A stretch of DNA of 64,000 bases from Patellaria atrata CBS 101060 (lineage: Eukaryota): assembly GCA_010093705.1 (NCBI GenBank), contig MU006095.1, positions 620,001 to 684,000 on the forward strand, in the 5' to 3' direction. Positions 2,501-7,620 of this stretch are shown here, piece by piece; the first letter of the stretch is position 1; every line of letters begins with the position of its first letter. The position numbers were made by a program, and so were the translations under genes. The notes under the pieces are model-generated. The model was not told the DNA's origin. It saw only the letters and a program-made list of their open reading frames with translations, and ran no database searches.

Positions 2501-3564
2501 ATGACCAAAACGCACGACGAGACGTAATCTAGTTCACAACTTCCCGAGCTTTCGGTTGCCTGGATCCACAATACCGAACTTGTCGAGGTTCCGCACCGCG
2601 CAAGAAACTTACTTGAAAATTACGCTCAAGTGCCTAGAAACCATGTTATGTATCACATAAACAAAGTGGTACGTCCCGACCACAATCATGCAATTATACT
2701 ACATATTCAGAACTAAGAGCGATCTAGAGAGCGCAAGCTTTGGAAATAGTACAATTACCATAAACCCTTGGGTGCTTGGCCAAATACTGATGAAATCCAA
2801 GTATCCGTATCCATGTATCGGCCACTATCGCTTTCTAGACATCCAGATTGTCAAATCGCCAGTGTATGAAGAGTTAGTGTCTCGTCTGAGCAAGGGAGAA
2901 CGATTACTCGACGTTGGATGCTGTATTGGACAGGAATTGAGACAATTGGTACGATTCAGAAAAGGGTGCATTGCATATTTATGCAAGCTCGGAACGTGAC
3001 GGCTGATGGCCATGAAGGTATCGGATGGAGTCAATTCGGAGAATCTCTATGGCATTGACCTTTATGAAACATTTTTCGATATTGGATATGCGCTTTTCCC
3101 AAGACCACGACACGTTTCGAGGCACATTTCTTTCGGGGGATATGTTTCAACCCACCGCCACTACCTTGTCGAAACTTGAGAGTTCGATGGATTTGATTTG
3201 GACCTGCAATGTTCTGCATTTGTTTACTTGGGAGAAACAATGTGCTGCTCTAGTTTTCATGCTAAGAGCGTTGAACGATTCTCCAAATACAATGATAGCG
3301 GGGAGATTCATGGGACATGAGAACCCAGGAGAGTACAACTACAGCTTTCGGGGTGAGGATGTGTCCATTTATCGGCACAATGATGAATCGTTCAAGAAGC
3401 TGCTTCGAGAGGTAACTGGGGGGTTGCCGGCGGGTTGGGAACTCAATGTTGAGGCTCATGATTGGATTGAGACATTGGAGCTTCGAACACAGGGTAGAGA
3501 CGATTCCACGTGGACGCTGGAGGTCAAGTTTGTTGCTCGCAAAGCGGGGACACACATGTGGTGA
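2501..3564 (+). pseudogene. SAM-dependent methyltransferase (fungal secondary-metabolite type), disrupted
   Basis: The spliced model reads ...ARNLLENYAQVP...HINKV/RAQALEI/YPYPCIGHYRFLD...RLLDVGCCIGQELRQL/VSDGVNSENLYGIDL... There is an in-frame TAA at 2525-2527 (codon 9) and a frameshift at ~3097-3100 (GYALF then QDHDTF in another frame). Confidence 0.8.
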
Positions 3565-3968
3565 AAACTGCTGGCACAATCCGATATCTGAGAGACTTAT
3601 ATAGACTGGAAAACCAAAATGGGAAATATTGAGCACCTATCAGGAAAATGAGAAGATGCTTGAGGCAAACACTATGATAGACCGAAAATTAGCAAAAAAC
3701 TACTCCGTGAGTGCATTTATTACTGACTGACCTGTACCATGAGTCTAGTGTGGCTGAACCAAGCTGCAATTATCAGGTCACATTTGAATAGAGAGAATAT
3801 GGACAGCATGTTGTAGATGGGAAGGCATATGAATTTGGAGCTATAGTTGCAGTTCTAATAGACCAAACAGATTTGTCGCCTCCTATCCTTTAACCACATC
3901 CCTGCCAGAAGTCCCCCATCCTCCCACCTCCCGAAACTTCCCCCCTAATCTTCTGCTCTAAAAGTAGC

Positions 3969-4190
3969 TTCTGTTCAACCACCAAGTTAGAGAGACCTTT
4001 TTTGAATACAACTTTACTCACAATTGGCGTTGATGTGAACAATACGGCCCTTAGTGTTAGAGGCATGGCTGCCGAAGGCACGCTGGTTGGCGACCTCCTC
4101 AGCGGAGAGTCCCTCAGGGATGACGGCAGCTTGATCGACAGCATTGACTGGGGGCCAGACGGCTTTCCAGGGTTGAGTGGTTGGAGCCAT
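3969..4190 (-). CDS. 56-aa microprotein MAPTTQPWKAVWPPVNAVDQAAVIPEGLSAEEVANQRAFGSHASNTKGRIVHINAN, unknown function
   Basis: ATG at 4190 in CAAACAATGG context, TATATAA at 4301-4295, C/A-rich leader, and codons biased to GCC/GTC/AAC/GAG. A 51-nt intron at 4021-3971 (GTGAGT...CTAAC...CAG) splits the stop codon T|AA. Confidence 0.75.
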
Positions 4191-4294
4191 TGTTTGGATT
4201 GGTTTGAAAGTGGTGATTGAAGTTTTGGAAAGTGTTATTGTGAGCTGTGGGAGCGTGATGAGGAAGGTTCTATCTTCCGTCTCAACTCTGATAC

Positions 4295-4301
4295 TTATAT
4301 A
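4295..4301 (-). promoter_or_regulatory. TATA box of microprotein gene
   Basis: TATATAA on the minus strand ~105 nt upstream of ATG 4190, followed by a CA/CT-rich leader. Confidence 0.55.
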
Positions 4302-4925
4302 TCGATTAAGGGAGCCCAAAGTTTGGAAATATTATTATATTGTGGGACTGCGAATTCTGCTCGAACTTGCTCATGGAGGAGCAAGTATTTTCTTGCAGCT
4401 GCAACTCCATGCATCTGAATGTTTCCCCAAGATCTGAGGACAGTGATAGGAACATGCCCTGGAGTAGACTTGCATGATCGTCCCTATCAGCTCTTATCTT
4501 AACCTTGCGGGGTTGATCAGCTGGCACGAGGCAGTATAATCATCTACAATATTTTGCTCTCTTTGAGAGATAGCATGGATTTGGACAACCACGATCACTA
4601 TCGATATCTGCAGGAGCGGCAGATTGGCCTTTCAACTGGACAAAACAGCACATAGTGCAATAGCTATAGGAAGGGGAAGCGGAAATATGCTCTAACATGC
4701 TCAGAATTGAATAACTAACTCAAAGGTTTTATGAACAGAGAGTTGGGGAACTCCGTCTTGTCTTCCCCGGGTGATTTCTTTTTCCAAATCTGTAAGGTAT
4801 ACCAAATTATAGACCACGAAGGCCCCCCCCTCAAGGGAACAGATGATATCCCCTTTAACCTTTGCGTATCCGAAAAGAAAATATTCCGTACTCTTTGTGA
4901 AAACATTCAGTTGAACACTTACAAG

Positions 4926-5876
4926 ATGAGCGAAGCGGTTTTGGGCTCGATCCGATATGTCAACAAGAACGAATCCACTGACCCCTGTGAGAAGGGCTTC
5001 ATCCTCCACTATGCCGCTCCACCAGGGTTTCCACAGAACAACTTCAGCATCGAATCCTACAAAGGGATCAAGATACACAACCTGAGGACAGCGAATCTAG
5101 CTTGGGACGAACATGGTCCTAAGATAGCTTCAATCAATAGCAATGGGATGGCACCAGAAAAGTTCGATGATGACGATTGGATTGAGAAAGTCTATCTGCC
5201 AGAGCTACACAGATCGATTTGCAAAGCTCTCGGTGGAAAGGACGTCACCGTCTTTGATTGGATGCTGAGGAAAAGAGCGGTGTCATTTCCGCAAAGAAAT
5301 GTGGGAGAAAAGAATGAAGACCAGCCACAGCCTTCGCTGTCAGCGCATATTGGTGAGTTAGATTTCCTTCACACGAAATAGCCCGGTTGACCGATGGTAG
5401 ATTATACGACGGGGGAGCTTGATGGCAGAGTGGACCGGTATTTTGGGAAGGAAAGAGAACGCCTTAGCAATCGACGTTACCAAGTTATCAAGTCAGTCCC
5501 CCGTCAGGTTGGCAATTCACCGTGAGAGGTTACATTACTGATCATTCGCAGTGTATGGAAGCCACTTGAAGGCCCATGCCGTGACTTCCCAATGGCATAT
5601 TGCGACCCTAAAAGTGTCGACCGCGAAAAAGACCTTTATATGGTTGATGAAGTCTTTCCTACCGTAGCTAATGAGGTCTTCCAAGTTCATTACAACCCAA
5701 AGCATAAGTGGTACTGGGTACGTGATCAGCTGGATTCGGAGATCACAATCTTCCAAGCGTATGATACGGAGAAGGCGCAGGAGTTGGCTGTTCCTTACTG
5801 CTCCTTCGATCTTGGTGCTGCGGGCTCAGGTATTCCTCGACAAAGCATTGAAGTTAGGGCGTTTGTATTTTATTGA
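4926..5876 (+). CDS. AsaB/CmcJ-like (GA4-desaturase/NvfI-related) Fe-dependent oxygenase, 3 exons
   Basis: Family motifs 'VFDWMLRKR', 'AHI/D' (HxD across intron 5353-5400), 'NVWKPL..P..DFPMAYCD', 'YNPKHKWYW' and C-terminal 'RQSIEVRAFV'. The expected distal 'PH' reads 'PY'. Confidence 0.85.
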
Positions 5877-6600
5877 CGAGATGATTGTTGGGTGAGGAGA
5901 TCAGTCCCTTTTCAATGAATCAAGTCCAGTACGGTTATACGAGTGAGATTTTATGATCTATTAACCTCACGAAAGATTGTATAAAGTTATCTTGTAGTCC
6001 TAGAACTGAACTAGAACTCTTACGGCAGCGGCGTGTGCCAAGAAACCAATGCGGACGCGGACGGGACGGGTCGCACAGAAGACTAGAACTAGTAAGGCAG
6101 AACTACCTTAGTATTAGTTCTACGTCCGCACTGTAGTTCTATGTACAGAGTAGATTAATAATAACGTGCGCAAAGCTTAATTACTTATTCTATAGGCTCT
6201 GGCGGTTAAAACAAAATCAGCTACTTGTAATTTCCGGCGGTGATGAAGTTAAAGTTATTAGGTTAGGGAGCTGCCGAGCTGGTCACAGGGGGTTTAGCGA
6301 AAAGGGGTGAACCAGCAAAGTAGGTAGTGATAGTTTAAACAAAACTTACAGGACAATACAATAGTCTATGCCTAGGGAACGATTTTCCCTAACCTCACGT
6401 CTAAGGTAGAGAGAGTCTAAGTACTACTTTGTAGCAAAATAGAATCTAGCAGCGCCACTGCCAATGTCCTCAAAGCTTGTACCGACCCAAGATTAGAACT
6501 ATCGAGGTGAAACTACACTTTTATCCGATGCTTCCAGCAGTCAGCAGTAGTTCTAGTGAGGTATTATTGCGAGCGTTACAGCACTTTGTAACAATTTATA

Positions 6601-7298: not shown

Positions 7299-7620
7299 GT
7301 GATCGGGGTGCTCGACGTGCTCGACATGCACAGGAGCGAGCAGAGCGATCAGAGCGATCAGCGTGATCGGGGTGCTCGACGTGCTCGACATGNNNNNNNN
7401 NNNNNNNNNNNNNNNNNNNNNNNNNNNNNNNNNNNNNNNNNNNNNNNNNNNNNNNNNNNNNNNNNNNNNNNNNNNNNNNNNNNNNNNNNNNNGCGTGATC
7501 GGGGTGCTCGACGTGCTCGACATGCACAGGAGCGAGCAGAGCAATCAGAGCGATCAGCGTGATCGGGGTGCTCGACGTGCTCGACATACACAGGAGCGAG
7601 CAGAGCGAGCAGAGCGATCA
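7299..7620 (+). repeat. 64-bp tandem minisatellite inside LTR, spanning gap
   Basis: Units starting GTGATCGGGGTGCTCGACGTGCTCGACA at 7299, 7363, 7495 and 7559. Confidence 0.92.
7393..7492. other. Assembly gap (100 N)
   Basis: Run of N. Confidence 1.

What the first reader, a model, noticed from the sequence alone, without database searches (positions are those of the whole stretch)
3969..4301. Spliced 56-aa microprotein gene whose stop codon is created by splicing
TATA box, CA-rich leader, strong start context and optimal-looking codons suggest high expression. The single intron (4021-3971) interrupts the stop (AAT T|AA); unspliced RNA would end ...INANCE* instead of ...INAN*. Gene finders would probably miss it. 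It looks intact while its neighbours are decaying.
Basis: seen in the sequence. Interest (0 to 1): 0.72.

Follow-up and report, generated by a model that had tools for sequence, protein, structure and literature searches.

The report
Split-stop microprotein gene paired with oxygenase
This is a real, conserved 56-residue fungal protein gene whose stop codon is most likely completed only by splicing, and it always sits beside the same iron/2-oxoglutarate oxygenase gene, which probably modifies or binds it.

Summary
The sequence features are all present. On the minus strand there is a TATA-like box at 4301-4294 and an ATG at 4190, followed by 56 codons plus a T. A 51-nt intron (4021-3971) runs GTGAGT...CTAAC...CAG, and the next two bases, AA, complete a TAA stop.

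No RNA data could be obtained, so splicing is inferred from comparison. Of 15 distinct homologous coding sequences, 12 have the same T|GT donor in phase 1. A mechanical splice rule rebuilds a stop in 10 of them (TAA 8, TGA 1, TAG 1). One is ambiguous and one is cut by its contig end. The other 3 carry an intact stop 1-5 nt before the same intron.

dN/dS is about 0.04-0.5, so the frame is under purifying selection.

The gene was not missed. A 100%-identical 63-aa model exists that uses the AAG of the CAG|AAG tandem acceptor.

The main new result concerns the neighbour. In 18 of 18 informative metagenome loci, and in the window, the microprotein gene lies next to a CmcJ/NvfI-type Fe(II)/2-oxoglutarate oxygenase gene. 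The arrangement is head-to-head in 17 loci and the window, and tail-to-tail in one.

The family has no Pfam match, looks disordered, and includes forms with 2-4 tandem units. My best reading is that it is a dedicated substrate or partner of that oxygenase. That reading is untested.

The parts
4294..4301 (-). TATA-like box TATATAAG, 111 nt upstream of the ATG. The transcription start is unknown.
   Evidence: Read directly. Similar TATAAA/TATAAG boxes lie about 100-115 nt before the ATG in several relatives. No RNA evidence.
4191..4293 (-). CA-rich upstream leader ending CAAACA before the ATG.
   Evidence: CA-rich leaders occur in all 10 intergenic regions printed.
4022..4190 (-). Exon 1: ATG, 56 codons (4190-4023) and the T (4022) that is the first base of the stop codon.
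   Evidence: There are 29 homologues. dN/dS is 0.04-0.5.
3971..4021 (-). Predicted 51-nt phase-1 intron: GTGAGT donor, CTAAC branch at 3990-3986, CAG acceptor.
   Evidence: The same donor phase after a T is found in 12 of 15 distinct homologous sequences. Splicing was not observed.
3969..3970 (-). AA, the first two bases of exon 2, which complete TAA. The 3' UTR follows, and its end is unknown.
3945..3968 (-). Alternative reading used by the public 63-aa model. The acceptor is the AAG ending at 3968. Then CT + ACT TTT AGA GCA GAA GAT TAG gives the tail STFRAED*.
   Evidence: The tail of P0002 matches this reading. The tail has no counterpart in any homologue.
4191..4925 (.). 735-bp region between the two divergent start codons, presumably a shared promoter.
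   Evidence: The ATG-to-ATG distance is 640-1065 bp in relatives. No shared k-mer rose above shuffled controls.
4926..5876 (+). Divergent partner gene: a CmcJ/NvfI-family Fe(II)/2-oxoglutarate oxygenase of 280 aa. Exons are 4926-5352, 5401-5491 and 5552-5876. Introns are 48 and 60 nt.
   Evidence: NCBIfam NF041278 scores 99.4 bits on exon 3 against a cut-off of 80. End-to-end alignment with P0083, P0086, P0093 and P0113 shows no break inside the exons. Splice sites were read. NvfI (7DE2) matches at E 3e-21.

Best explanation
A real protein-coding gene on the minus strand encodes a 56-residue protein that is probably disordered.

Gene structure. The last sense codon (AAT) is followed by a T. 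A 51-nt intron comes next, and the first two exon-2 bases (AA) complete the TAA stop. The stop codon therefore exists only in spliced mRNA. Unspliced RNA would add the residues CE. The neighbouring AAG acceptor would add STFRAED, which is the annotated 63-aa form and is probably a minor product or an annotation artefact. This split stop is an old, conserved feature of the family.

Function. The gene forms a conserved two-gene module with a divergently transcribed CmcJ/NvfI-type Fe(II)/2-oxoglutarate oxygenase gene. I infer that the microprotein is that enzyme's dedicated substrate or binding partner. In that reading the enzyme oxidises one of the two conserved motifs, QPWKxVWP or NQRAFGSHASNTKGRIVH.

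Shown: the gene, its selection, the splice signals, the conserved split stop and the conserved adjacency. Inferred: the splicing itself, the choice of acceptor, and any physical or enzymatic link.

Odds: real gene above 0.97. Stop completed by splicing as the main form, about 0.75. Functional coupling with the oxygenase, about 0.65. Substrate rather than non-substrate partner, about 0.4 against 0.25.
For: Gene and selection. One search found 29 homologues of 53-87 aa at E <= 0.01, 28 of them at E 1e-29 to 7e-13. Source names, where given, are all Dothideomycetes or Sordariomycetes. The profile search gave 37 hits, 27 of them at E <= 1e-10. Thirteen columns are invariant. Mean pN is 0.17 against mean pS 0.55.

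Split stop. In one search, a fixed rule (first strong donor, CTRA[CTA] branch, first AG at least 8 nt after it) was applied to the 15 distinct coding sequences.
- 12 have a T|GT donor in phase 1.
- 10 of these rebuild a stop: TAA in WIN, L003, L006, L010, L015, L016, L018 and L019; TGA in L012; TAG in L013.
- L008 is ambiguous, because only one of its two branch candidates gives TAA.
- L014 is cut by its contig end.
- 3 (L001, L009, L011) have an intact stop, then the intron 1-5 nt later. In these the base before GT is G instead of T.

Only 17-26% of AG sites in these loci are followed by AA, AG or GA. Intron lengths range from 51 to 96 nt and the intron sequences are unalignable, yet the T...AA/GA/AG pairing is kept. 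Read-through tails of protein models nearly all begin with C[EK], which is T|GT[GA]AG.

Module. In one search, 50, 18 of 21 metagenome loci carry the oxygenase gene next to the microprotein gene. The other 3 (L009, L011, L013) have only 53, 24 and 393 bases upstream and so cannot show it. No other gene is shared across the loci. In 13 further microprotein/oxygenase pairs the two proteins report the same longest-contig length, so they probably lie on one contig. One of these pairs is a second, paralogous pair in the source organism. L021 has a very divergent small protein that keeps QPWKAVWPP, and it sits beside a 29-34%-identical oxygenase.

Oxygenase. It is intact and keeps the H-x-D...H pattern and the R-x-S pattern aligned to NvfI.

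Microprotein. The AF2 model has mean pLDDT 63 and one short helix. Some relatives carry 2-4 tandem units.
Against: No RNA evidence of any kind was obtained, so neither transcription nor the junction was seen.

The public model uses the other acceptor of the CAG|AAG tandem. I cannot see whether transcript data supported that choice.

The 10 stop-rebuilding cases are related by descent, so the binomial figure overstates independence. One case (L008) is ambiguous.

Adjacency does not prove interaction, and the complex prediction could not be run.

The family members I know of act on small molecules, not proteins. This rests on the NvfI paper passages and on recall for CmcJ and AsaB.

No conserved promoter element was found.

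Taxon sampling of the loci is unknown because they are metagenome contigs.
Confidence: 0.6

Rival explanations
1. The annotated 63-aa protein is the true product. Splicing uses the AAG acceptor ending at 3968, the stop is an ordinary TAG at 3947-3945, and no stop codon is created by splicing.
For: P0002 is 100% identical over 56 residues and ends in STFRAED. Both acceptors lie 16-19 nt after the CTAAC branch. Tandem NAGNAG acceptors can both be used (recalled).
Against: The STFRAED tail has no counterpart in any of the 28 other homologues. Conservation stops 2-7 residues after the invariant His. In 10 relatives the first usable AG rebuilds a stop. CAG comes first and is the preferred acceptor type (recalled). 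Gene callers commonly cannot end a CDS in a split stop (recalled), which would explain the model.
Confidence: 0.2
2. The microprotein is functionally independent of the oxygenase. The two genes only share a bidirectional promoter region or stay together by chance linkage. In this reading the microprotein is, for example, a small disordered stress protein.
For: No interaction was tested. Known CmcJ/NvfI-type enzymes act on small molecules (passages; recall). Tandem-unit forms also occur in hydrophilic stress proteins (recalled).
Against: The pair is kept in 18 of 18 informative loci while every other neighbour changes. Synonymous sites in these loci are near saturation. The pair was duplicated as a pair in the source organism. 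It persists in L021, where both genes are highly diverged and the orientation has changed to convergent. That change argues against a shared promoter being the only tie.
Confidence: 0.25
3. The intron is not removed, or is mostly retained, and the product is the 58-aa read-through form ending INANCE.
For: The unspliced frame stops after only two more codons, so retention would be harmless here.
Against: In relatives the unspliced frame runs on for 5 to 73 unrelated codons, with in-frame stops at +15 to +219 nt. Donor, branch and acceptor signals are nevertheless kept in all of them.
Confidence: 0.05
4. It is a chance ORF or a non-coding transcript, not a protein-coding gene.
For: There are no Pfam, NCBIfam, PDB or Atlas matches, and the structure model has low confidence.
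Against: Strong cross-class conservation in the coding frame with dN/dS well below 1. No Rfam match.
Confidence: 0.01

Closest known systems
Plant EUL (Euonymus-lectin) genes with a conserved intron inside the stop codon (PMC2788552; passages read)
   Same: An intron sits in the stop codon and is kept across a whole gene family, so the stop is complete only in spliced mRNA.
   Different: A different kingdom and an unrelated protein. There it is one of several introns in a normal-sized gene and was confirmed by cDNA. Here it is the only intron of a 56-codon gene and rests on comparison alone.
Tandem NAGNAG acceptors (recalled, not looked up)
   Same: The CAG|AAG at 3973-3968 offers two acceptors 3 nt apart. 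One gives the 56-aa form and the other the annotated 63-aa form.
   Different: Usually such a pair inserts or deletes one residue. Here the choice decides between an immediate stop and a 7-residue tail.
CmcJ/NvfI-family Fe(II)/2-oxoglutarate oxygenases (NvfI: PMC8292354, passages read; PDB 7DE2)
   Same: The neighbouring enzyme passes the NCBIfam NF041278 cut-off and keeps the metal-binding pattern.
   Different: This subfamily is unusually conserved, at 62-78% identity to relatives named from several fungal classes. It is tied to a microprotein gene rather than to a secondary-metabolite cluster.
Fungal RiPP precursor and tailoring-enzyme systems: amatoxin MSDIN, dikaritins, borosins (class names from the abstract of PMC9233826 in the listing; details recalled)
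   Same: A short ribosomal peptide gene sits next to a modifying-type enzyme. Some members carry several tandem units. No signal peptide is apparent, as with the MSDIN and borosin precursors.
   Different: There are no Kex2 (KR) repeats, no signal peptide, no fused methyltransferase, no nearby protease, and no hypervariable core. The whole peptide is conserved. No CmcJ-type enzyme is known in a RiPP pathway; the search found none.
Protein-modifying 2-oxoglutarate oxygenases with one dedicated protein substrate (for example lysyl or prolyl hydroxylases of translation factors; recalled)
   Same: This is what the pair may work like: one oxygenase and one conserved target motif.
   Different: Those enzymes belong to other oxygenase families (JmjC or prolyl-hydroxylase type), and their substrates are not encoded next door.

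Membership tests
Genes with an intron-split stop codon | The donor site falls after the first or second base of the stop codon | tested here: met
   AAT T|GTGAGT, phase 1, G at 4021. The same is seen in 12 of 15 distinct homologous sequences.
Genes with an intron-split stop codon | The acceptor is followed by the bases that complete the stop | tested here: met
   CAG|AA gives TAA. A fixed rule rebuilds TAA, TGA or TAG in 10 of the 12 split-type sequences. One is ambiguous and one is cut.
Genes with an intron-split stop codon | cDNA or RNA-seq shows the junction | not testable with these tools
   No RNA run was listed. The two runs laid were DNA contigs without joints.
CmcJ/NvfI family oxidoreductase, NF041278 (the neighbour at 4926-5876) | Score above the curated cut-off | tested here: met
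   Exon 3 alone scores 99.4 bits against a cut-off of 80. Exon 1 adds 33 bits.
CmcJ/NvfI family oxidoreductase, NF041278 (the neighbour at 4926-5876) | Metal-binding His/Asp/His pattern of 2-oxoglutarate oxygenases | tested here: met
   SAHID and VPHCSF align with VHCD and SAHCAF of NvfI. The two His are invariant in 22 relatives. The NvfI paper names the iron triad.
CmcJ/NvfI family oxidoreductase, NF041278 (the neighbour at 4926-5876) | Oxygenase activity | not testable with these tools
   Needs an enzyme assay.
Fungal RiPP precursors (dikaritin type) | N-terminal signal peptide and core repeats flanked by Kex2 (KR) sites | tested here: not met
   The 56-aa sequence has no hydrophobic N-terminus and no KR dipeptide. 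The tandem-unit relatives are not separated by KR either.
Fungal RiPP precursors (amatoxin MSDIN type) | Conserved leader and follower around a hypervariable Pro-bounded core, with a prolyl oligopeptidase | tested here: not met
   The Pro-bounded stretch P-WKxVWP-P is conserved, not hypervariable. No third conserved gene accompanies the pair.
Any Pfam, NCBIfam or PDB family (the microprotein itself) | A significant profile match | tested here: not met
   0 families in Pfam at E <= 10. 0 in NCBIfam. The best PDB hit has E 4.8. The Atlas gave no usable hit.

The most novel reading that the evidence does not exclude
The pair is a previously unrecognised peptide-modification system of filamentous ascomycetes. 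In it, a CmcJ/NvfI-type Fe(II)/2-oxoglutarate oxygenase, a family known only from small-molecule tailoring, acts on its own ribosomally made microprotein. The conserved unit of that microprotein (QPWKxxWPP ... [FY]G[ST]HASNTKG) can be multiplied in tandem like a multi-core precursor. The product would be either a new type of fungal RiPP or an oxidatively modified signalling or sensor peptide.
Probability: 0.25. Interest if true: 0.8.

Novelty: new variant of a known kind. Interest (0 to 1): 0.55.

Why it matters
First, the split stop explains why public models of this family disagree at the C-terminus. They show read-through tails, 'partial' flags and an invented 7-residue extension. The case is a clean example of a conserved stop codon that exists only after splicing, and it is useful for improving fungal gene callers.

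Second, and more important, it exposes an uncharacterised microprotein family with no Pfam entry that is locked to one highly conserved oxygenase subfamily across at least two fungal classes. That gives a directly testable hypothesis about what this orphan enzyme subfamily acts on. If the microprotein is its substrate, this would be a new kind of ribosomal peptide modification in fungi.

Tried and rejected
RNA evidence. The two runs found are DNA contigs identical to the window, possibly its own source, and show no joints. This says nothing either way on expression.

Whole genome. None is held for this window, so paralogues could not be searched in the DNA.

Complex prediction. The queue was full and the tool was then declared unavailable, so nothing was folded.

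The taxa of the tandem-unit relatives therefore remain unknown.

Structure. AF2 on a 29-sequence alignment gave mean pLDDT 63 and pTM 0.28. That is too weak for a fold search, so none was run.

Other database searches found nothing for the microprotein:
- The Atlas searches gave no usable hit.
- Pfam, NCBIfam and PDB-sequence searches found nothing.
- Rfam found nothing at 3400-5000.

Promoter. A k-mer search over 10 intergenic regions found nothing above shuffled controls.

Literature. Searches for a CmcJ-type enzyme with a precursor peptide, for the enzyme family names and for six locus tags of homologues found nothing on this family. Supplementary tables were not searched.

P0056 (899 aa) and P0062 (541 aa) were set aside as spurious, because they are long perfect repeats with no family motifs.

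A chance ORF was considered and rejected on conservation and dN/dS.

Full report
**1. The observation**

On the minus strand a TATA-like box TATATAAG lies at 4301-4294. A CA-rich leader ends CAAACA before ATGGC, and the ATG is at 4190. The open frame runs 4190..4014 and reads MAPTTQPWKAVWPPVNAVDQAAVIPEGLSAEEVANQRAFGSHASNTKGRIVHINANCE*.

After codon 56 (AAT) comes a T at 4022, then GTGAGT starting at 4021. CTAAC lies at 3990-3986 and CAG ends at 3971. Removing these 51 nt joins the T to AA (3970-3969) and makes TAA.

Third codon positions are 46% C and 29% T, against 24-27% C in three neighbouring genes. This agrees with 'optimal-looking codons', but no reference set was available.

**2. The gene is real**

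One search found 29 proteins of 53-87 aa at E <= 0.01, 28 of them at E 1e-29 to 7e-13. Source names, where given, are all Dothideomycetes or Sordariomycetes.

One hit, P0002, is 100% identical and is named as a hypothetical protein of Patellaria atrata CBS 101060. A paralogue from the same organism, P0007, is also listed.

A profile search of 1.84 billion representatives gave 37 hits, 27 of them at E <= 1e-10. Two long repeat proteins, P0056 and P0062, were set aside as spurious after reading them.

Thirteen columns are invariant. They fall in two motifs, QPWKxVWP and NQRAFGSHASNTKGRIVH.

Among 15 distinct coding sequences from 20 of the 21 metagenome loci plus the window, mean pN is 0.17 and mean pS is 0.55. 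Pairwise dN/dS is 0.04-0.5. The frame is therefore under purifying selection.

Pfam, NCBIfam, PDB sequences and the ESM Atlas give nothing. Rfam gives nothing either.

**3. Is the stop made by splicing?**

No RNA could be found. The only run search listed two runs, and both proved to be DNA contigs identical to the window. The answer therefore rests on comparison.

I applied one fixed rule: the first strong donor, then a CTRA[CTA] branch, then the first AG at least 8 nt after the branch A. Results for the 15 distinct coding sequences:

| Outcome | Number | Sequences |
|---|---|---|
| T\|GT donor in phase 1, stop rebuilt as TAA | 8 | WIN, L003, L006, L010, L015, L016, L018, L019 |
| T\|GT donor in phase 1, stop rebuilt as TGA | 1 | L012 |
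| T\|GT donor in phase 1, stop rebuilt as TAG | 1 | L013 |
| T\|GT donor in phase 1, ambiguous (two branch candidates, one gives TAA, the other adds 8 codons) | 1 | L008 |
| T\|GT donor in phase 1, contig ends inside the intron | 1 | L014 |
| Intact in-frame stop in exon 1, same intron 1-5 nt later | 3 | L001, L009, L011 |

In the three intact-stop sequences the base before GT is G, the usual donor context by recall, not T.

The predicted split-stop introns are 51-96 nt long and cannot be aligned with one another. In the same loci only 17-26% of AG sites are followed by AA, AG or GA. Nine or more of ten would have P of about 3e-5 if the cases were independent. They are not fully independent.

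The protein models tell the same story. After the invariant His come 2-7 variable residues, and then nearly every read-through begins with C[EK], which is T|GT[GA]AG.

I conclude that a phase-1 intron at the stop codon is ancestral to the family. In most lineages the stop exists only in spliced mRNA.

A conserved intron inside the stop codon is already documented for plant EUL lectin genes (PMC2788552, passages read). The phenomenon itself is therefore known.

**4. The annotated model**

P0002 ends INAN+STFRAED. Reading, this is the same donor joined to the AAG acceptor 3 nt further on. T + CT ACT TTT AGA GCA GAA GAT TAG (3967-3945) gives exactly that tail.

The gene was therefore not missed by gene finders. 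The acceptor is a CAG|AAG tandem.

The STFRAED tail has no counterpart in any homologue. CAG is the first AG after the branch. I give about 0.75 to the 56-aa form being the main product. The 63-aa form may be a minor isoform or an artefact.

Models in other genomes end in unrelated tails or are flagged partial. That is what a split stop would do to gene callers.

**5. The neighbourhood**

Local tblastn with the window's ORFs against the loci, and with a full-length homologue, shows that 18 of the 21 loci carry one particular gene next to the microprotein gene. That gene is the homologue of window 4926-5876 (+).

The three loci without it (L009, L011, L013) have only 53, 24 and 393 bases upstream and cannot show it.

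In 17 of the loci and in the window the two genes are head to head. Where both start codons lie on the contig, they are 640-1065 bp apart (735 bp in the window).

- L020 is a remnant in which a deletion has removed the front halves of both genes.
- L021 has a very divergent small protein that keeps QPWKAVWPP. Its [FY]G...KG skeleton resembles P0061 and P0063. It lies tail to tail with an oxygenase that is 29-34% identical.

An all-against-all tblastx of 12 representative loci found no other block shared throughout.

In 13 further microprotein/oxygenase pairs, the two proteins report the same longest-contig length. One of these is the paralogue pair P0007/P0113 of the source organism. This suggests, but does not prove, that the two proteins of each pair lie on one contig.

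**6. The partner enzyme**

NCBIfam NF041278 (CmcJ/NvfI family oxidoreductase) scores 99.4 bits on exon 3 alone, against a cut-off of 80.

The gene is intact. It aligns over residues 1-280 with P0083, P0086 and P0093 at 65-67% identity and over 1-282 with P0113 at 62%. The only stops lie inside two canonical introns, 5353-5400 and 5492-5551.

The closest solved structure is NvfI (7DE2, E 3e-21). The SAHID and VPHCSF stretches align with NvfI's metal-binding stretches, and PRQSIEVR aligns with PRESIDVR. The two His are invariant in 22 relatives. The NvfI paper describes the iron triad and the small-molecule substrate (passages).

The subfamily is unusually conserved. Identities to the window are 62-78% for proteins named from several fungal classes. 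The window's own enzyme did not appear, and I cannot say why.

**7. How it most likely works**

The microprotein is predicted to be mostly disordered, with mean pLDDT 63 and one helix at residues 30-39. It has two short conserved motifs.

In some relatives the whole unit, or the second motif alone, is repeated 2-4 times in tandem. Examples are P0033, P0043, P0045-P0048 and P0039.

These features are typical of a substrate or docking peptide, not of an autonomous enzyme. So are the co-inheritance with one oxygenase over large divergence, the duplication of the two genes as a pair, and the persistence of the pairing after a change of orientation.

I therefore commit to the reading that the microprotein is the dedicated substrate or binding partner of the CmcJ/NvfI-type oxygenase. 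My odds are about 0.4 for substrate, 0.25 for non-substrate partner and 0.25 for merely co-regulated.

It fails the defining features of the known fungal RiPP classes. It has no signal peptide or KR sites, no hypervariable core and no third conserved gene. If it is a RiPP-like system, it is of a new type.

**8. The other neighbour**

The methyltransferase-like gene at 2534-3564 (+) aligns with P0160 and P0161 in three pieces. Between residues 138 and 139 the frame shifts by +1 at base 3099, with no room for an intron.

This is either a pseudogene or a homopolymer error. The DNA contigs agree with the window but may be its source. 'Decaying neighbours' therefore holds for one of the two flanking genes.

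**9. Verdict**

The split stop is a conserved but already known kind of gene structure. The gene is already annotated, with a doubtful C-terminus.

The unexpected result is the tight microprotein-oxygenase module. I found it in no paper, and it gives a testable lead on an orphan enzyme subfamily.

Noticed in passing
window 2534-3564 (+): The methyltransferase-like gene, convergent with the microprotein gene, has a +1 frameshift at base 3099 in a TTTTCCC run, relative to its homologues P0160 and P0161. It is either a pseudogene or a homopolymer error. In Polyplosphaeria fusca, the homologues of this gene, the microprotein and the oxygenase report the same longest-contig length, 28,729 bases.
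   Followed up: partly
L021:1172-1500 (+) and L021:2021-2993 (-): A divergent small protein keeps only the QPWKAVWPP motif and a [FY]G...KG skeleton like P0061 and P0063. It lies tail to tail with a 29-34%-identical CmcJ-like gene. The motif-plus-oxygenase association may therefore extend to a wider superfamily.
   Followed up: partly
L020:427-860: A remnant locus in which a single deletion appears to have removed the N-terminal halves of both the microprotein gene and the oxygenase gene, together with the region between them.
   Followed up: no
window 4035-4061 (-), residues 43-51 of the microprotein: The invariant stretch ASNTKGR resembles, from memory, the NIKS-loop region of release factor eRF1, whose lysine is hydroxylated by a 2-oxoglutarate oxygenase. 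This is a recalled resemblance of a short motif. It is untested and may well be chance.
   Followed up: no
window about 7400-7500: A run of N (an assembly gap) flanked by a short tandem repeat, inside or just after the amidase-like gene that starts near 6592.
   Followed up: no
window 4926-5876 (+): The window's own oxygenase protein did not appear among the 96 hits, where the best hit is 78% identical, although the microprotein's model did appear. The public annotation may lack a model for this intact gene or model it differently.
   Followed up: no
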